The notes beneath the pieces were generated by a model. That model had not been told where the DNA came from and ran no database searches. It was given only the letters and a program-made list of their open reading frames with translations. Positions 1-34,120 of a stretch of DNA of 42,681 nucleotides are shown here, one piece after another. The DNA lies in contig JBBIPQ010000003.1 in the NCBI GenBank assembly GCA_037442785.1, positions 1 to 42,681 of the forward strand. The letters run 5' to 3'. Within the stretch, counting starts at the first letter, position 1. Each line of letters opens with the position of its first letter. The position numbers and the translations under genes are program-made. The DNA is from Nitrospirota bacterium. Its GTDB lineage: Bacteria > Nitrospirota > Thermodesulfovibrionia > Thermodesulfovibrionales > UBA9159.

Positions 1-109
1 AAAGGCGACACCTTAATGTAAGCTGTTAAATGACCTATTATCACCATAAAATAATCTCAAAAGACATTCATAACCTCATCCTATCTTTAAATAAAATCCC
101 GTCGCTACT

Positions 110-146
110 GGGGTCCCCAAAAAATCTTCGACTTTTTGGGGTGCCC
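110..146 (+). repeat. Palindromic repeat element, copy 1 (intergenic, followed by a T-rich tract)
   Basis: GGGGTCCCCAAAAAATCTTCGACTTTTTGGGGTGCCC. CCCCAAAAA (115-123) pairs with TTTTTGGGG (133-141). It matches the copy at 16213-16249 at 30/37 positions and the reverse complement of 26814-26850 at 30/37. The downstream sequence gctttcttttgtgttttt is T-rich. Confidence 0.8.
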
Positions 147-3713: not shown

Positions 3714-4706
3714 GTTACGGTTACGACACAATTAGAACTTGATCAGGAAGGGGAGCTTTCCCTTATATACACCGGACTGAATAAGAACCTGAAGGTCATT
3801 GAGGACTGCCTGAATATCACTATAAGCTCAAGGGGTAATAAGATATTCATTCAGGGTGATGAGCAACAGACCAGCAGGGCGATCAATCTTATCAATGAGA
3901 TAAGATCTCTGAATAGGGAGGGTTTCAGTCTCAGTGCCGAGGATCTGCGTCTTGCTATCCAATCTGCCACACCTGATACGGAGCTATCCTTAAGGGAGTT
4001 GTTTGCGAATAATATATCGGTCGCATCAAAGAAGAGGTTCATTGTACCAAAGACAGAGGTTCAGAGACAGTACATTGAGGCTATAAAGACTAATGACATT
4101 GTTATAGGTATAGGGCCAGCTGGAACTGGCAAGACATATCTTGCCATGGCCATGGCTATTAATGCCCTCTTGAAGAGGGAAGTTAGCAGGATCGTACTGG
4201 CAAGACCCGCTGTCGAGGCCGGTGAGAAACTTGGTTTTCTACCTGGAGATATGTATGAGAAGGTGAATCCATACTTGAGGCCCCTTTATGATGCCCTGTT
4301 CGATATGATGGATGCTGAAAAGGCAGGGAAATTGATAGAAAAGGGAATAATAGAGATAGCACCCCTTGCCTTTATGAGGGGCAGGACCCTCAATGATTCC
4401 TTCATCATCCTCGATGAGGCACAGAATACCACATCAGAGCAGATGAAGATGTATCTTACCCGACTGGGTTTTAATTCAAAGACGGTTATAACAGGAGACA
4501 CGACGCAGATAGATCTTCCCCACGGAAAGGTATCTGGCCTTGTGGAGATAGAGAATATCCTTAAGGGTATCGAGGGGATAAGGTTCATATACTTCACTGA
4601 AAGGGATGTAGTGAGGCACAGGCTCGTTCAGGAGATCGTGAAGGCCTATGAAAGATACGAAAAACGGGGAAGCGAAGCCCAGCAGGGCAATCCCTCAAAA
4701 GAATAA
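3714..4706 (+). CDS. phoH: PhoH-like ATPase (PhoH/YbeZ family); 5' end unresolved
   Basis: Walker A GIGPAGTGKTYLAMAMA and DEAQN are present. The frame is open from 3714 and encodes a PhoH-type N-terminal domain (LKVIEDCLNITISSRGNKIFIQGDE...), but there is no ATG/GTG/TTG in frame before the TTG at 3999. Confidence 0.85.
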   Translation, partial: VTVTTQLELDQEGELSLIYTGLNKNLKVIEDCLNITISSRGNKIFIQGDEQQTSRAINLINEIRSLNREGFSLSAEDLRLAIQSATPDTELSLRELFANNISVASKKRFIVPKTEVQRQYIEAIKTNDIVIGIGPAGTGKTYLAMAMAINALLKREVSRIVLARPAVEAGEKLGFLPGDMYEKVNPYLRPLYDALFDMMDAEKAGKLIEKGIIEIAPLAFMRGRTLNDSFIILDEAQNTTSEQMKMYLTRLGFNSKTVITGDTTQIDLPHGKVSGLVEIENILKGIEGIRFIYFTERDVVRHRLVQEIVKAYERYEKRGSEAQQGNPSKE

Positions 4707-15232: not shown

Positions 15233-15327
15233 GCCATGGCCTCCTTTTTTTGATGATGTGAATTTCTATCATAGTTTTTCAGGGTTTGTCAAGAAAGAAT
15301 TTCAACTATCTGTGTTATTATTTAGTT

Positions 15328-16974
15328 ATGAAACCGAATATGATGGATTACAGGGTGGAATACAGTAGATTTCACCTTCAGGTCCCTCAAGAATTCTCTT
15401 TTCCCCTTGATGTGTTTGACAGATGGGATGGGAATGCCCTTTTCTGGACAGACGGAGAAAAAGAGAGGATTTATTCTTTCAGGGAATTAACTGTGCTTTC
15501 CTCTAAGGGCGCAGGTGCCCTGATGAAGGCTGGTATTAAAAGGGGGGATAAGGTAATAGTAATGTTACCGAATATCCCAGAATGGTGGGAGATCATGCTT
15601 GCCCTTATGAGGCTTAATGCTATACCTATTCCGGCTACCACCCTATTAACGGCAAAGGACATAGAATACAGGGTTTCTACTACAGATATAAAGGCAATAG
15701 TCATTACTGATGAAGATCTCTTAAGGATAGAAGAGACTATCAGGAAGCACGATGTAATGGTCATAACGATCGGTAAGGGAATGGGAGATATGGATTATAT
15801 AAGGGAGAGGGATAAGGCAGATGCCTTCTCAGGAGATAGGACTGGCTCGGATGAACCAGCTATTATCTATTTTACATCAGGGACGACAGGACCACCAAAG
15901 ATGGTATTACACACCCAGGCATCATATCCCCTTGCCCATATGATCACAGGCAGATACTGGCTTGACCTGAGACCCGGTGACCTTCACTGGAATGTGTCAG
16001 ACCCTGGATGGGCAAAGGCTGCATGGTCAAGCCTCTTTGGGCCATGGCATATGGGTGCAACTGTTTTCTCCTTTTACAGAAAGGGAAGATTTGATCCTTA
16101 TCTTACGATAGAGATCATGAAGAGATACAATATAACGACCTTCTGCGGACCTCCAACCGTTTACAGGATGATAGCTAAGGATATACTTTCAGGAGGGAAT
16201 GCCCTCATGACCGGGGCCTCCAAAAAATCAAAGATTTTTTGGGGTGACCTTCCGGTAAGGCACTTTGTTGCAGCTGGAGAACCCCTTAATAGGGAGATAA
16301 TAGAATTATGGAAGGAAAAGACAGGTCATTTCATATACGATGGATATGGACAGACCGAGACGGTTAATGTGCTTGCAAATTTTCGGTGTCTTCCGGTGAA
16401 ACCAGGCTCAATGGGCGTTGTTGTTCCTGGATTTATCGTTGATATCATCGATGAGGATGGTAAACCTTTGCCTGCTCGGACGGAGGGGGATATTGGCATA
16501 AAGGTCTATCCGGAAAGACCAGCGGGGCTATTCAAGGAGTATCTCGGAAATCCAGAGGCAACAGAGAAGACTATCAGGGGAGAATGGTATGTGACAGGGG
16601 ACAGGGCATACAGGGATGAGGATGGTTACTTCTGGTTTGTTGGAAGATCAGATGATATAATCCTCACCTCAGGCTACAGGATAGGCCCTTTTGAGATAGA
16701 GAGTGTCCTCATTGAACATCCCGCTGTGAAGGAGTCGGCTGTTACAGCCAGTCCTGATGAGATAAGAGGTGAGGTCGTTAAGGCCTTTATTGTCCTGATG
16801 GAGGGGTATTCTCCTTCAGAGGGACTTGTGAGGGACTTACAGGAATTTGTTAAGGCTCGTACAGCCCCATATAAATATCCGAGAAAGATAGAGTTTGTGG
16901 AGGAACTGCCAAAGACGATAAGTGGAAAGATAAAAAGGAAGGAGTTGAAACTAAAAGAGTTTCGAAGGGATTAA
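15328..16974 (+). CDS. AMP-forming acyl-CoA synthetase/ligase (medium-chain type)
   Basis: AMP-binding motif YFTSGTTGPPK, then YGQTE, GDRAYRDEDGYFWFVGRSDD and PKTISGKIKRKEL. I preferred the ATG at 15328 over the TTG at 15286. Contains an in-frame palindromic element (16213-16249). Confidence 0.9.
   Translation: MKPNMMDYRVEYSRFHLQVPQEFSFPLDVFDRWDGNALFWTDGEKERIYSFRELTVLSSKGAGALMKAGIKRGDKVIVMLPNIPEWWEIMLALMRLNAIPIPATTLLTAKDIEYRVSTTDIKAIVITDEDLLRIEETIRKHDVMVITIGKGMGDMDYIRERDKADAFSGDRTGSDEPAIIYFTSGTTGPPKMVLHTQASYPLAHMITGRYWLDLRPGDLHWNVSDPGWAKAAWSSLFGPWHMGATVFSFYRKGRFDPYLTIEIMKRYNITTFCGPPTVYRMIAKDILSGGNALMTGASKKSKIFWGDLPVRHFVAAGEPLNREIIELWKEKTGHFIYDGYGQTETVNVLANFRCLPVKPGSMGVVVPGFIVDIIDEDGKPLPARTEGDIGIKVYPERPAGLFKEYLGNPEATEKTIRGEWYVTGDRAYRDEDGYFWFVGRSDDIILTSGYRIGPFEIESVLIEHPAVKESAVTASPDEIRGEVVKAFIVLMEGYSPSEGLVRDLQEFVKARTAPYKYPRKIEFVEELPKTISGKIKRKELKLKEFRRD
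16213..16249 (+). repeat. Palindromic repeat element, copy 2 (in-frame inside the acyl-CoA synthetase CDS)
   Basis: GGGGCCTCCAAAAAATCAAAGATTTTTTGGGGTGACC. It has a perfect 10-bp stem CCAAAAAATC/GATTTTTTGG and is 30/37 identical to the copy at 110-146. It encodes ..TGASKKSKIFWGD... Confidence 0.85.
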
Positions 16975-31429: not shown

Positions 31430-32104
31430 ATGGAAGAGACAAGATTAATAGGACTCGATCTATCCGTAGCATCACCTGAGGTTATAGAGATACTCCTTGA
31501 GTTTTCTCGTGAGCCAGAGGTCTTCAGGGAGGTCTTTAATGCCAACAGGAATAGACCAGAGATACTTAGCCTCATAATACAACAGGAGACTACACCCCCT
31601 GATGTCAGAGAGGAGATCAAAGGGATACTGAGTTTACCATTAAAGCCTGTAGAGAGAGGGCCTAAGCAACCCTTCAGTACTGAGGCAAGGAAAGAAACCC
31701 TCTTACAGAGGATACAGTATCTTACTGTTGGTGAAAAGATTGCCCTTGCCCTCAGGGGGGGACAGGAGATAAGGTCACTGCTTCTGAAGGACCCTAATAA
31801 GGAGGTGGTTCTTGCGGTGCTCAAGAATCCCAAGATGACGGAAACAGAGGTTGAGGGGCTTGCCCATTCGAGGAATGCCCCTGAAGAGGCCCTCAGGGCG
31901 ATATCCAGGAATAGGGAATGGACTAAGAACTATAATATCGTACTTGCCCTTGTGAATAACCCTAAGACACCTCCGGGTCTGAGTGTGCCATTTGTAACAA
32001 GTCTGAGGACAAAGGACCTGGTGATACTCGAGAAGAATAAGAATGTCCCTGATGCGGTGAGGGCTGCTGCAAGGAGATTGGTTCAGGCAAGGAAGGTTTC
32101 ATGA
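31430..32104 (+). CDS. Alpha-helical repeat protein (LRV/HEAT-like repeats), function unknown
   Basis: 224 aa with recurring units: VVLAVLKNPKMTETEV, ALRAISRNREW, IVLALVNNPKTPPGL and an N-terminal VFNANRNRPEIL. No catalytic motif. Packed with no gap after tlyA and overlaps the next gene by 4 nt. Confidence 0.6.
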   Translation: MEETRLIGLDLSVASPEVIEILLEFSREPEVFREVFNANRNRPEILSLIIQQETTPPDVREEIKGILSLPLKPVERGPKQPFSTEARKETLLQRIQYLTVGEKIALALRGGQEIRSLLLKDPNKEVVLAVLKNPKMTETEVEGLAHSRNAPEEALRAISRNREWTKNYNIVLALVNNPKTPPGLSVPFVTSLRTKDLVILEKNKNVPDAVRAAARRLVQARKVS

Positions 32105-33231
32105 TCGAGGAGAGATTTATAAATAAACAGACCTGGGACAAGGTGCTTAATTTTATTGCTCTCAGTGACGAGCCTTCTCCCTATCTCCTCATTGACAGGG
32201 ATGTGGTGAGGGAAAAGATCGATTTGATCGGTAAGAATATAAGGAATTCGAGGGTTTTTTATGCTGTTAAGGCCAATCCTGACAGGGAGGTGCTTTCTTA
32301 TCTGAACAGCCTTGGTATTGGGTTTGAGATAGCCTCTGAAGGAGAGTTGAGGATACTTTCTGATCTGGGTGTTGAACCAGATAGGATAATAACCAGCAAC
32401 CCTGTTAAGACCCTGGTCTTTCTTGAACAGGCTGTTTCATACGGGATTGATTACTATGCCTTTGACTCCATCGCAGAGGTGGATAAGCTTTCCCGTTATG
32501 CCCCTAACAGGAATGTATATGTGAGATTAACTGTGCCTAATGAGGGGAGTGAGTGGCCCCTGAGTAAAAAGTTTGGGGTAGAGCTTGAGGATGCCCTGGG
32601 TCTTCTCATTTATGCAAAGGAAAAAGGGCTGAATCCCGTTGGAATAACCTTCCATGTGGGTTCCCAGTGCAACAATGCCTATAACTGGAATACAGCCATA
32701 GAAAAGGCAAGGGACCTCTGGGAGATGGCAGCGGACAAGGGTATCAGCCTTTCCATGATCAATCTGGGTGGGGGTTATCCAATAAGGTATACAAGGGATG
32801 TTTTGAGTATTGAATATATAGAGAAAAAGATAAACAGGCTTATCTCAGAGAAGTTCCCTTCTGATCTCACCGTGTTTATCGAACCTGGAAGGGCTGTTAT
32901 AGGTGATGCTGGTGTGTTTGTTACCTCTGTAATAGGGAAATCCCGAAGGGGTGATGAGAACTGGCTATATATAGACGTTGGTGTTTTTAATGGGTTGATG
33001 GAGAGTGTGGGTGGGATTAAGTATTCCTATGTTGTAGGTAGCAGAAACGAACCTAAACCATGGACTATCGCAGGGCCGAGTTGTGACAGCTTTGATGTGA
33101 TTGATAAGGAGGTCATTCTTCCTGAACCAGAGGTTGGTAATCGCTTGCTCATCCTGTCTGCCGGGGCATATACCATCTCTTATGCTTCAGAGTTTAATGG
33201 TTTTTCGATACCAAAGACTATATTGATATGA
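32101..33231 (+). CDS. Group IV (alanine-racemase fold) PLP-dependent decarboxylase, ornithine/lysine/arginine decarboxylase-like
   Basis: PLP-lysine context FYAVKANPD, plus FEIASEGEL, HVGSQ, GGGYP and CDSFD. Lies directly upstream of speE, which suggests putrescine supply. Substrate not determinable from sequence alone. Confidence 0.8.
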   Translation: MIEERFINKQTWDKVLNFIALSDEPSPYLLIDRDVVREKIDLIGKNIRNSRVFYAVKANPDREVLSYLNSLGIGFEIASEGELRILSDLGVEPDRIITSNPVKTLVFLEQAVSYGIDYYAFDSIAEVDKLSRYAPNRNVYVRLTVPNEGSEWPLSKKFGVELEDALGLLIYAKEKGLNPVGITFHVGSQCNNAYNWNTAIEKARDLWEMAADKGISLSMINLGGGYPIRYTRDVLSIEYIEKKINRLISEKFPSDLTVFIEPGRAVIGDAGVFVTSVIGKSRRGDENWLYIDVGVFNGLMESVGGIKYSYVVGSRNEPKPWTIAGPSCDSFDVIDKEVILPEPEVGNRLLILSAGAYTISYASEFNGFSIPKTILI

Positions 33232-33233
33232 GC

Positions 33234-33268
33234 GGGTCCCCAAAGAGTCAAAGACCTTTTGGGGTGCC
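33234..33268 (+). repeat. Palindromic repeat element, copy 3 (intergenic between the decarboxylase gene and speE)
   Basis: GGGTCCCCAAAGAGTCAAAGACCTTTTGGGGTGCC. It shares the GGGTCCCCAAA...TTTTGGGGTGCC ends with copies 1 and 2. It starts 3 nt after the TGA stop and ends 2 nt before the AAAGGAGG RBS of speE. Confidence 0.8.
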
Positions 33269-33283
33269 TGAAAGGAGGATCCT

Positions 33284-34120
33284 ATGATAAAGTTTTTTGA
33301 GAAAGACCCCTATGCGCCGATTCAATATGTGTATGATATTGAAAAGGTGCTCTATAAAGGGAAGAGCAAGTTTCAGGAAATCATGGTTGTGGAAAATCCC
33401 TATTTCGGGAAGATGCTTATACTTGATGGAGTTGTACAGATAACAGAGAGGGACGAGTTCTTTTACCATGAGATGCTCGTTCATGTCCTTATGCATGCCC
33501 ATCCTAACCCAGAGAATATTGTGGTTATAGGAGGCGGAGATGGAGGAGCTGTCAGGGAGGTGCTGAAGCATGACAGTGTTAAGAAGGTCTTCTTTATAGA
33601 GATAGATGAAGAGGTTATAAATGTTTCTAAGGAATTCTTTCCTACGGTCTCAGGCAGTATCAATGACAGCCGTGTAGAGATAATGTGCATGGATGGTGCG
33701 GAATTCGTTAAAAACCGGGATAAGGATATAGATGTCATAATCGTTGATTCCACTGACATCGTTGGCTTTGCAAAGAGCCTCTTTACTGTTGAGTTTTTTA
33801 AGTCAGTGAGGGACTGCCTCACAGATGAAGGCATGTTCGTGACGCTTTCAGAGTCACTCCATTTCCATAAGGACCTTGTTATTGAGGTTCAGGAGGCGAT
33901 GAGGCTCATATTTCCTGTGGTTGATCTTTACACTGCACCCCTTGCCACCTATGCCGGGAACTGGTGGACCTTTTCTGTTGCATCCAAGAGGCATGATCCC
34001 AGGATTATGAGGAGAAAGTTCCAGATCGATACAAGATACTATAGTGACGAGATCCACGCTCAGGCCTTTCTACCTAAGGGATTCTATGACAGGCTCATGG
34101 CAAGGGGGCTTAAATGGTAG
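33284..34120 (+). CDS. speE: Spermidine synthase (polyamine aminopropyltransferase)
   Basis: 278 aa with YHEMLVH, the SAM-binding GGGDGGAVREVLKH, EIDEEV and IIVDSTD. Confidence 0.93.
   Translation: MIKFFEKDPYAPIQYVYDIEKVLYKGKSKFQEIMVVENPYFGKMLILDGVVQITERDEFFYHEMLVHVLMHAHPNPENIVVIGGGDGGAVREVLKHDSVKKVFFIEIDEEVINVSKEFFPTVSGSINDSRVEIMCMDGAEFVKNRDKDIDVIIVDSTDIVGFAKSLFTVEFFKSVRDCLTDEGMFVTLSESLHFHKDLVIEVQEAMRLIFPVVDLYTAPLATYAGNWWTFSVASKRHDPRIMRRKFQIDTRYYSDEIHAQAFLPKGFYDRLMARGLKW

What the first reader, a model, noticed from the sequence alone, without database searches (positions are those of the whole stretch)
16213..16249. A ~37-nt palindromic repeat element sits in-frame inside the acyl-CoA synthetase gene
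Seen directly: GGGGCCTCCAAAAAATCAAAGATTTTTTGGGGTGACC has a perfect 10-bp stem (CCAAAAAATC/GATTTTTTGG). It is 30/37 identical to an intergenic element at 110-146 and shares its ends with the element at 33234-33268. It lies in the reading frame of a conserved AMP-forming ligase and is translated as ..NALMTGASKKSKIFWGD... From my recollection of medium-chain acyl-CoA synthetases, the segment between the TFCxPPTVYRM helix and the xVxxGEPLN motif is usually about 10 residues. Here it is about 24, so the element looks like a ~45-nt insertion that preserved the frame. This resembles Rickettsia palindromic elements and some cyanobacterial and neisserial mini-repeats that colonise coding sequences. A selfish or structural repeat tolerated inside enzymes would be a genome-wide property worth describing.
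Basis: partly seen in the sequence, partly recalled or inferred. Interest (0 to 1): 0.7.

Follow-up and report, generated by a model that had tools for sequence, protein, structure and literature searches.

The report
Palindromic repeat inserted in-frame in enzyme
A 39-base hairpin-forming repeat from a dispersed family has inserted into an acyl-CoA synthetase gene without breaking the reading frame, adding 13 residues to a surface loop; the same family sits inside many housekeeping genes of related Nitrospirota, a known kind of event (as in Rickettsia) in a lineage and repeat family for which I found no published description.

Summary
Window 16213-16249 holds the quoted palindrome with a perfect 10-bp stem, in frame inside an ACSM-type acyl-CoA synthetase (15328-16974, +).

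- All 119 other orthologues examined lack it.
- The syntenic orthologue L001 (81% nt identity) shows the empty site AGG|CTTCC.
- A sister assembly (98.4% nt identity) carries the same insert in consensus form.
- There is no target-site duplication.

The element belongs to a dispersed family. A truncated scan of GTDB species genomes gave at least 104 stretches holding 120 copies, mostly Nitrospirota/Thermodesulfovibrionales. The stem covaries and the loop is free. Mean 5.05 of 6 reading frames are stop-free.

At least 14 of 120 copies lie in-frame inside recognised genes, including MutS, RecJ, DnaE, PurL, LpxB, Gmk, Def, IspD, NuoN-like and CobA-HemD. Some are in isolate genomes.

Other palindromic families have hit two loops of this same synthetase in other lineages.

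Most likely it is a REP-like non-autonomous element spread through single-stranded DNA by an HUH/Y1-type enzyme. That step is inferred; no mobiliser was found. The copy here is a translated passenger in a disordered surface loop and is beginning to decay.

Verdict: a new family of a known kind (REP/RPE-like coding palindromes). Interest is moderate.

The parts
16210..16248 (+). The 39-nt inserted unit ACCGGGGCCTCCAAAAAATCAAAGATTTTTTGGGGTGAC, translated as TGASKKSKIFWGD (residues 295-307 of the 548-aa protein).
   Evidence: Exact 39-nt gap against syntenic orthologue L001, and the same insert in sister assembly L106. 13-aa gap against 29 and then 119 orthologues. Matches positions 1-39 of the conserved unit derived from 33 copies.
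16220..16242 (+). Hairpin core: perfect 10-bp stem CCAAAAAATC/GATTTTTTGG with loop AAA. In the sister assembly the stem is 12 bp.
   Evidence: I15. RNA fold gives -20.7 kcal/mol for the window and -23.5 for L106, z about -3.
16249..16250 (+). CT dinucleotide directly 3' of the insert. It is target-derived and not part of the element.
   Evidence: CT is present in the empty site of L001 (AGG|CTTCC). C follows the unit in 30/33 and T in 28/33 copies of this subtype.
15328..16974 (+). Host gene: medium-chain-type acyl-CoA synthetase (AMP-binding + AMP-binding_C), 548 aa. The mechanical ORF starts at 15286.
   Evidence: PF00501, PF13193. (3etc E=8e-130; ACSM2A E=1.9e-121). (Foldseek TM 0.72-0.76).
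107..145 (+). Intergenic copy 1 of the same subtype (ACTGGGGTCCCCAAAAAATCTTCGACTTTTTGGGGTGCC).
   Evidence: Not terminator-like.
33230..33268 (+). Intergenic copy 3 (GAGCGGGTCCCCAAAGAGTCAAAGACCTTTTGGGGTGCC). It lies in the 52-nt spacer between co-directional ORFs 32101-33231 and 33284-34120. Its first 2 nt are the last 2 nt of the upstream TGA stop.
   Evidence: Not terminator-like.

Best explanation
SHOWN:
- The segment 16210-16248 is one copy of a dispersed 39-nt palindromic repeat family. The unit is ACC-GGGGTCCCC-AAAAA(G/A)TC-nnn-GA(C/T)TTTTT-GGGG-TGCC.
- It inserted, without target-site duplication, between an AGG and a CTT codon of an acyl-CoA synthetase gene.
- The insertion happened after the lineage split from relatives about 80% identical and before it split from a 98%-identical sister.
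- Because the unit is 13 codons long and its arms contain no stop codon in any frame, the gene stays open.

INFERRED FROM SEQUENCE AND MODEL:
- The gene now encodes 13 extra residues in a flexible loop between the PPTVYRM helix and the strand preceding GEPLN.
- The host enzyme probably still works, since all family-invariant residues are kept.
- The copy is a passenger, not a functional module. It is already drifting from the consensus by two arm substitutions that shorten the stem from 12 to 10 bp and make the peptide more hydrophilic (V->A, P->S).

INFERRED, NOT SHOWN:
- The family spreads as a non-autonomous REP-like element.
- It would be recognised as a single-stranded DNA hairpin carrying an asymmetric 5' tag and an internal stem mismatch.
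- It would be cut and pasted by an HUH/Y1 tyrosine transposase (RAYT- or IS200/IS605-like) supplied in trans, with a preference for insertion just 5' of CT.

I put about 0.95 on the descriptive part and about 0.4 on the Y1/RAYT mechanism.
For: Insertion and timing:
- 119 orthologues lack it.
- exact +39 nt against syntenic L001.
- sister assembly GCA_964547215.1 reads AGG|ACCGGGGTCCCC...GGGGTGAC|CTT, i.e. R|TGVPKKSKIFWGD|L.
- three cluster members from separate assemblies have the same length.

Family:
- 3 copies in the window against 0 expected.
- at least 104 stretches and 120 copies, mostly Nitrospirota, including isolate Thermodesulfovibrio sp. N1.
- stem pair 3 covaries (G-C 76, A-T 38, 6 mismatches), although the search pattern left both sides free.
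- 33 copies of this subtype have sharp boundaries at positions 1-39 and are followed by CT.

Coding colonisation:
- in-frame copies inside MutS_V, RecJ DHH, DnaE, PurL, LpxB, Gmk, Def, IspD, Proton_antipo_M, CobA-HemD, CbiX-CbiC, an M1-ChaN protein and a nitroreductase.
- Clean +13 aa in Gmk and in Thermodesulfovibrio sp. TK110 HemD.
- 5.05 of 6 frames open, against 3.29 in shuffles.

Loop location:
- a gap against 3etc and ACSM2A.
- pLDDT below 50 in coil 290-303 between H276-287 and E312-317, and the model matches 3etc/3c5e.

Decay:
- 3 of 26 differences between sisters fall in the 42 nt at the insert (p=0.027), and all are nonsynonymous.

Mechanism analogy:
- No TSD.
- An outer-stem T.T/G.G mismatch is conserved (pairs 13-14).
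- Y1 enzymes leave no direct repeats, need a tag plus a stem mismatch, and cut at C|T (PMC3333891).
- RayT-like Y1 genes exist in this clade.
Against: - No mobilising enzyme was found. There was no Y1/RAYT homologue in the window or in about 105 blocks of 8 kb or less around copies, and no recurrent transposase-like neighbour.
- The one RayT-like gene seen (L109) is flanked by a different repeat. It belongs to a long-C-terminus type that the literature does not link to REPs (PMC6006769).
- The window's subtype has no 5' GT[AG]G tag.
- Orientation is mixed within a few kb, so no strand bias is evident.
- Only three filled/empty comparisons are clean.
- Tandem copies are spaced 39-41 nt, so not every subfamily is 3n long.
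- Translation of the insert and activity of the enzyme are not demonstrated.
- Most data come from MAGs, and the window's own genome was not scanned.
Confidence: 0.7

Rival explanations
1. The hairpin is kept in the gene because it does something there. It could act at RNA level (ribosome pause, mRNA stabiliser, processing site) or at DNA level (protein-binding or topological site). On this view it is not a passive passenger.
For: Family-wide stem covariation shows that the hairpin itself is constrained. The RNA fold is stable at -20.7 kcal/mol. Intergenic copies sit in operon spacers close behind stop codons, like REPs with RNA roles (PMC3733652). One copy fills a tRNA-tRNA spacer.
Against: It is absent from all 119 other orthologues. 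The in-gene copy is losing stem pairs relative to its sister. Host genes and positions are unrelated, and both orientations and all three frames are used. There is no terminator signature and no Rfam family. Covariation could also reflect what the mobilising enzyme needs to recognise.
Confidence: 0.12
2. The family spreads without a dedicated transposase. Possible routes are template switching at replication forks, capture of hairpin-forming oligonucleotides during repair, or gene conversion between copies.
For: No mobiliser was found near 120 copies. Loop triplets occur in both polarities within same-oriented units (AAA/TTT, AGA/TCT, GAA/TTC), which suggests hairpin-mediated flipping. Tandem dimers exist.
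Against: Boundaries are identical to the base across 33 copies, with a CT preference and no microhomology at the one resolved junction. That looks like site-specific enzymatic cleavage. REP-type mobilisers are typically single-copy and would rarely be sampled in blocks of 8 kb or less (PMC6006769).
Confidence: 0.15
3. It is a classical MITE derived from a DDE-transposase insertion sequence.
For: It is small, palindromic, non-coding on its own, dispersed, and able to fuse with ORFs as some MITEs do (PMC3184786).
Against: The resolved filled/empty pair has no target-site duplication. At 39 nt the unit is far below the size at which MITE-type repeats are listed (100 bp or more in the repeat table of PMC3184786; an upper bound of 400 bp is quoted there). 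The element is one hairpin with an asymmetric tag, not terminal inverted repeats around a core.
Confidence: 0.04
4. It is a chance palindrome or an assembly artefact.
For: The window and most relatives are metagenome assemblies.
Against: Chance expectation is 0 in 100 shuffles. The insert is present in separate NCBI and Logan assemblies. The family is present in isolate genomes (Thermodesulfovibrio sp. N1 and TK110). Copies carry substitutions and remain in-frame within conserved domains.
Confidence: 0.01

Closest known systems
REP / REPIN elements mobilised by RAYT (TnpA_REP) Y1 transposases, including the intragenic REPs catalogued by Di Nocera et al. 2013 (PMC3733652)
   Same: A 20-40-nt imperfect palindrome carrying a conserved asymmetric tag and a stem mismatch. 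High copy number, mostly in operon spacers just after stop codons. No target duplication. A minority of copies sit in-frame inside genes, notably replication and repair genes (here DnaE, MutS, RecJ).
   Different: The window's subtype has no 5' GT[AG]G or CGTC tag; its tag is ACCGGGGT. No REPtron or cognate RAYT was found. The stem is A/T-rich in the middle rather than G+C-rich. The host phylum (Nitrospirota) is not mentioned in the main text of the 2013 survey and appears only once in the 2018 one. The fraction inside genes is unusually high in some genomes (7 of 14 sampled in UBA665).
Rickettsia palindromic elements (RPE; Ogata et al. 2000, as summarised in PMC3184786 and PMC3733652)
   Same: Palindromic repeats that insert in-frame into unrelated protein-coding genes and are tolerated as extra peptide segments, alongside intergenic copies.
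   Different: RPEs are about 105-146 nt (35-50 aa) and are described from Rickettsia. This element is 39 nt (13 aa), has a different sequence, and occurs in free-living anaerobic Nitrospirota.
Sub-terminal hairpins of IS200/IS605 and their gene-less derivatives (PATEs)
   Same: A hairpin is recognised as single-stranded DNA. Insertion occurs next to a short specific target sequence. There are no terminal inverted repeats and no direct repeats.
   Different: Those elements have distinct left and right ends with a hairpin at each. Here a single 39-nt hairpin is the whole unit, and no TnpA or TnpB lies nearby.
MITEs that fuse with ORFs (Nezha, Correia/NEMIS, ERIC, RUP/BOX)
   Same: Non-autonomous small repeats that fold into stem-loops and occasionally extend or interrupt coding sequences.
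   Different: MITEs have terminal inverted repeats, target-site duplications and a larger size (repeats of this type are listed at 100 bp or more, with 400 bp quoted as an upper bound, in PMC3184786). None of this applies here.

Membership tests
REP (RAYT-associated repetitive extragenic palindrome) | Imperfect palindrome 20-40 nt long that can fold as a hairpin | tested here: met
   The unit is 39 nt with a 12-bp inner stem and a 3-bp outer stem.
REP (RAYT-associated repetitive extragenic palindrome) | Conserved GT[AG]G (or CGTC) tetranucleotide 5' of the hairpin foot | tested here: not met
   The window's subtype begins ACCGGGGT. GTAG appears only in another subtype, 3' of the hairpin on the same strand (..GGGGTAACAGTAG).
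REP (RAYT-associated repetitive extragenic palindrome) | Non-complementary bases in the stem (needed by TnpA_REP for binding) | tested here: met
   Pairs 13-14 are T.T and G.G/G.A in most copies. The requirement itself is from PMC3333891.
REP (RAYT-associated repetitive extragenic palindrome) | High copy number, dispersed, mainly intergenic, close behind the 3' ends of genes | tested here: met
   46 copies in 34 blocks of 8 kb or less of bin_368 and 14 copies in UBA665. Many lie 2-60 nt after a stop codon. For the window's own genome only 3 copies in 42.7 kb could be seen.
REP (RAYT-associated repetitive extragenic palindrome) | A cognate RAYT gene flanked by the repeats (REPtron) | tested here: inconclusive
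   There was no Y1 homologue in the window or the sampled blocks. Whole genomes could not be searched.
REP (RAYT-associated repetitive extragenic palindrome) | Insertion without target-site duplication | tested here: met
   Filled site AGG|unit|CTT against empty site AGG|CTT.
Rickettsia palindromic elements (RPE) | Sequence family of about 105-146 nt restricted to Rickettsia | tested here: not met
   The unit is 39 nt and the hosts are Nitrospirota. RPE size is from PMC3184786.
Rickettsia palindromic elements (RPE) | In-frame insertion into unrelated protein-coding genes | tested here: met
MITE | Terminal inverted repeats around a core, flanked by target-site duplications, with the size of listed MITE-type repeats (100 bp or more; up to 400 bp quoted) | tested here: not met
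   No TSD, a 39-nt unit and a single hairpin. The definition is from PMC3184786.
Intrinsic (Rho-independent) terminator | G+C-rich stem followed by a U-run | tested here: not met
   No terminator-like site at any of the three window copies.
Any curated RNA family (Rfam 15) | Match at the gathering threshold | tested here: not met
   The only matches were 16S rRNA and a tRNA elsewhere in the loci searched.
ANL-superfamily medium-chain acyl-CoA synthetase (the host gene) | AMP-binding and AMP-binding_C domains, with full-length similarity to solved members | tested here: met
   PF00501 + PF13193. 3etc E=8e-130 and ACSM2A E=1.9e-121. Foldseek TM 0.72-0.76.

The most novel reading that the evidence does not exclude
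The element may represent an undescribed class of REP-like repeats that is effectively pre-adapted to coding DNA. The unit is 13 codons long and its arms are stop-free in all six frames. It yields three benign loop peptides: GxPKKSxxFWG, RGPQKxxDFLG and GSPKSxRLFG. It would be moved by an uncharacterised HUH-type enzyme that has crossed phyla, since the same 29-nt core occurs in Eubacteriales, Chloroflexota, Aquificota and Thermodesulfobacteriota. Together with at least two other palindromic families, it would then be a major, ongoing source of loop insertions in Thermodesulfovibrionia proteomes. About a quarter of the orthologues of this one enzyme carry such an insert.
Probability: 0.2. Interest if true: 0.7.

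Novelty: new member of a known kind. Interest (0 to 1): 0.5.

Why it matters
The case shows that essential enzymes of a free-living, often thermophilic bacterial lineage are repeatedly remodelled by tiny palindromic repeats. The affected genes include DNA polymerase III alpha, MutS, RecJ, PurL, peptide deformylase and guanylate kinase.

Practical consequences:
- Such inserts inflate protein lengths.
- They create spurious "hypothetical" peptides.
- They can mislead orthology calls, alignments and structure prediction in MAG-based studies.

Conceptual consequences:
- It extends the Rickettsia/REP "coding palindrome" phenomenon to another phylum.
- It offers a compact 39-nt system for asking how selfish DNA and protein loops co-evolve, with natural filled and empty alleles and culturable Thermodesulfovibrio hosts.
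- It could help identify which enzyme moves such elements.

Tried and rejected
- First AlphaFold run on a 30-sequence alignment was too poor to use (pLDDT 54.9). I replaced it with a 120-sequence run.
- Looking up the window protein's own contig found nothing on record.
- All-against-all clustering of 1,497 ORFs around the copies found only ABC ATPases, response regulators and the like, with no transposase.
- A tblastn probe with the RayT-like protein of L109 against the window and all loci gave no hits.
- The homologue search for that protein showed a huge, long-C-terminus Y1 family that the literature does not tie to REPs.
- The viral-contig scan for the canonical core gave 0 hits.
- Rfam gave no family.
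- A full-text search for the core sequence found only unrelated primer matches.
- PDB alignments of Def, IspD, LpxB and the nitroreductase were too gapped to measure insert length.
- The L051 (DegT) and L053 hits lack the GGGGT tag and were set aside as probable chance matches.
- Orientation bias relative to transcription was checked and not found: in-gene copies were 13 same-sense and 11 opposite among the 24 open-frame candidates, and copies between co-directional genes were 23 same and 15 opposite.
- I considered the idea that the 39 nt are ancestral and were deleted elsewhere. I rejected it because the segment is a member of a dispersed repeat family and 119 orthologues lack it.
Full report
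1. The observation

Window 16213-16249 reads GGGGCCTCCAAAAAATCAAAGATTTTTTGGGGTGACC. The arms 16220-16229 and 16233-16242 are perfectly complementary around an AAA loop. The element lies in ORF 15286/15328-16974 (+) and is read as ...NALMTGASKKSKIFWGD.... That ORF is an AMP-forming acyl-CoA synthetase of the medium-chain type. It has PF00501 + PF13193 and full-length matches to 3etc (E=8e-130) and human ACSM2A. The neighbourhood is syntenic in relatives: GcvH and dihydrolipoamide dehydrogenase upstream, and a response regulator and histidine kinase downstream.

2. It is an insertion of exactly 13 codons

- In an alignment of 30 orthologues, and then 120, only the window protein has the segment. 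The loop is 17 residues long in most orthologues and 31 here.
- The DNA of the closest insert-free orthologue (L001, Logan ERR6139599, about 81% nt identity, same gene order) aligns with a single 39-nt gap. It reads ...TTAAGG|CTTCCAG... where the window has ...CTCATG-ACCGGGG...GGGGTGAC-CTTCCGG....
- A sister assembly (L106, GCA_964547215.1, gene 98.4% identical) carries the same insert in consensus form. It reads AGG|ACCGGGGTCCCCAAAAAATCAAAGATTTTTTGGGGTGAC|CTT, i.e. R|TGVPKKSKIFWGD|L.
- The insert is therefore 16210-16248. It lies between two intact codons and has no target-site duplication.
- It arose after the split from the ~80% relatives and before the split of the two sisters.
- It is present in separate NCBI and Logan assemblies, so it is not an assembly artefact.

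3. It belongs to a dispersed family

After de-duplication these hold 120 copies.

- Most are in Nitrospirota/Thermodesulfovibrionales. There are 46 copies in 34 blocks of 8 kb or less of MAG bin_368 and 14 in UBA665. Others are in several further MAGs and in the isolate Thermodesulfovibrio sp. N1.
- The shared module is GGGGT + CCCCAAAAA(G/A)TC + nnn + GA(C/T)TTTTTGGGG + T.
- Stem pair 3 is G-C in 76 copies, A-T in 38 and mismatched in only 6, although the pattern let both sides vary freely. The loop is unconstrained. Pairs 13-14 are conserved mismatches.
- Sub-types differ in the outer right flank. The window's type (33 copies) is conserved at positions 1-39 (ACCGGGGTCCCCAAAAAGTCnnnGACTTTTTGGGGTGCC). 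It is followed by C in 30/33 and T in 28/33 copies.
- That CT already exists in the empty site, so it reflects target preference and is not part of the element.
- Rfam has no family for it.
- None of the window's copies looks like an intrinsic terminator.
- The core sequence appears in no searchable paper.

4. Coding sequences are colonised repeatedly

- 24 of 120 copies lie in frames open for at least 60 codons on both sides.
- Pfam shows that at least 14 are inside recognised proteins, with domains spanning or flanking the element. These are MutS domain V, RecJ DHH, DnaE, PurL, LpxB, guanylate kinase, peptide deformylase, IspD, a NuoN-like antiporter subunit, CobA-HemD, CbiX-CbiC, an M1-ChaN protein, a nitroreductase and this synthetase.
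- Because the unit is a palindrome, both strands give the same three peptide types: GxPKKSxxFWG, RGPQKxxDFLG and GSPKSxRLFG.
- The arms are intrinsically stop-free. On average 5.05 of 6 frames are open, against 3.29 in shuffles and 4.05 in random palindromes of the same composition. Only loops ending in T create a TGA.
- Clean length measurements give +13 residues in guanylate kinase against E. coli 1s96. They also give +13 in the HemD loop of Thermodesulfovibrio sp. TK110.
- In Thermodesulfovibrio sp. N1 the same loop holds a ~65-residue composite in which this element is nested among other repeats.

5. The host loop is permissive

- The insert falls in a gap against both solved relatives, between ...PPT(V/I)YR... 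and ...VAAGEPLN.
- A 120-sequence AlphaFold model (pLDDT 73.9) places residues 290-303 in a coil with confidence below 50. The coil lies between helix 276-287 and strand 312-317. The model superposes on 3etc and ACSM2A with TM 0.72-0.76.
- Ten of 120 orthologues have this loop expanded by at least three different inserts. One is a GC-rich hairpin CTCGCC-n-GGCGAG, present as a monomer or a dimer.
- About 22 orthologues have a second loop expanded, mostly by the palindrome AATCCCCCC..CCCCCCTTT-nnn-AAAGGGGGG..GGGGGGATT, read as NPPxPPLxKGGxGGF.
- All residues invariant across the family are retained in the window protein.

6. State of this copy

Relative to its sister, the window copy has GTC CCC -> GCC TCC (V->A, P->S) and AGG -> ATG just upstream.

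- These changes shorten the perfect stem from 12 to 10 bp and raise the fold energy from -23.5 to -20.7 kcal/mol.
- Three of the 26 differences between the sisters fall in these 42 nt (Fisher p=0.027). All three are nonsynonymous.
- This suggests relaxed constraint or amelioration, but it is not proof.

7. Mechanism

Shown:
- precise boundaries;
- no target duplication;
- an asymmetric conserved tag;
- a conserved stem mismatch;
- insertion next to CT;
- intergenic copies close behind stop codons.

These features parallel REPs and the IS200/IS605 family. Their Y1 (HUH) enzymes act on single-stranded hairpins and leave no direct repeats. In E. coli TnpA_REP they need a 5' tag and a stem mismatch and cut at C|T (PMC3333891). 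REPs inside genes, often replication and repair genes, are documented in other phyla (PMC3733652). In-frame REP insertions occur even within RAYT genes (PMC6006769).

Not shown:
- Any enzyme. No Y1 homologue or recurrent transposase lies near the sampled copies.
- The RayT-like gene found beside another orthologue (L109) is flanked by a different repeat. It is of a type not linked to REPs.
- The window's subtype lacks GT[AG]G.

The Y1/RAYT step is therefore an inference, which I put at about 0.4.

8. Verdict

This is a new family, in a new phylum, of a known kind of element (REP/RPE-like coding palindromes).

It is not categorically new, but three features stand out:
- how often it sits inside essential genes;
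- the repeated hits on the same loops by unrelated palindromes;
- the occurrence of the same 29-nt core in distant phyla, which remains unexplained.

Noticed in passing
L107:1544-1588; L109:5511-5590: A second, unrelated palindromic repeat (AATCCCCCC-AT-CCCCCCTTT-AGA-AAAGGGGGG-CG-AGGGGGGATT, read as NPPIPPLEKGGEGGF) is inserted in-frame in another loop of orthologues of the same acyl-CoA synthetase. About 22 of 120 orthologues have that loop expanded.
   Followed up: partly
L107:~2006-2030; L108:~3911-3975: A third family, a GC-rich hairpin CTCGCC-n-GGCGAG, is present as a monomer (QDSRPGESPEATK) or a dimer (QDSRLRRVAPALRRVRRGEEETK). It sits about 5 residues upstream of the insertion point studied here, in other lineages.
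   Followed up: partly
L109:2387-3487: A 319-aa Y1_Tnp / RayT-like gene (NCBIfam REP_Tyr_transpos, 52 bits, below the cut-off of 80) is bracketed by 30-nt inverted repeats containing TAAGGGGGAC and preceded by tandem GAGGGAAATAAGGGGGAC. It lies 1.5 kb upstream of an insert-bearing orthologue.
   Followed up: partly
L036:~3990-4250 (Thermodesulfovibrio sp. N1 CobA-HemD): One HemD loop holds a ~65-residue composite insert. The element is nested inside another inverted repeat and followed by tandem TQNDIV-type units, with more units in P0124. The TK110 strain has a single 13-aa copy of the same family in a different frame in the same loop.
   Followed up: partly
L028, L049, L056, L070, L073, L012 (Firmicutes); L009, L103 (Chloroflexota); L022, L031 (Aquificales): The identical GGGGTCCCCAAAAA(A/G)TC-nnn-GA(C/T)TTTTTGGGG core occurs in unrelated phyla. 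In Firmicutes the 3' GGGG runs straight into an SD-like GGGGAGAGGAGG..ATG. In a Dehalococcoidia MAG it is in-frame inside a nitroreductase. A scan of viral contigs gave 0 hits.
   Followed up: partly
L089:4642-4684: One copy fills the whole 43-nt spacer between a tRNA-Lys and a tRNA-Glu gene. Its ACCA prefix follows directly after the tRNA-Lys gene as called by ARAGORN.
   Followed up: yes
window:33229-33268: Intergenic copy 3 overlaps the TGA stop of ORF 32101-33231 by 2 nt and ends 15 nt before the ATG of ORF 33284-34120, just ahead of its AAAGGAGGA ribosome-binding site.
   Followed up: partly
window:28521-28552: A perfect 14-bp inverted repeat, AAATAAAAGGCGGT / ACCGCCTTTTATTT, with a 4-nt loop. 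It looks like a bidirectional terminator and is unrelated to the repeat family.
   Followed up: no
L006:156-197; L072:5626-5666; L105:2465-2504: Head-to-tail dimers of the element, with centre-to-centre spacing of 41, 40 and 39 nt.
   Followed up: no
L007:6236; L010:5765; L034:3294; L076:6109: Four copies in bin_368 share extended flanks (..TTCTTA|unit|CTCTTCCCATTTGT..). This suggests either a longer composite repeat or a strongly preferred target motif.
   Followed up: no
L004, L016, L025, L029, L054, L085, L093 (UBA665): In MAG UBA665, 7 of 14 sampled copies lie inside genes (Gmk, RecJ, MutS, a response regulator, FliK, IspD, Def), against roughly 6 of 46 in bin_368.
   Followed up: no
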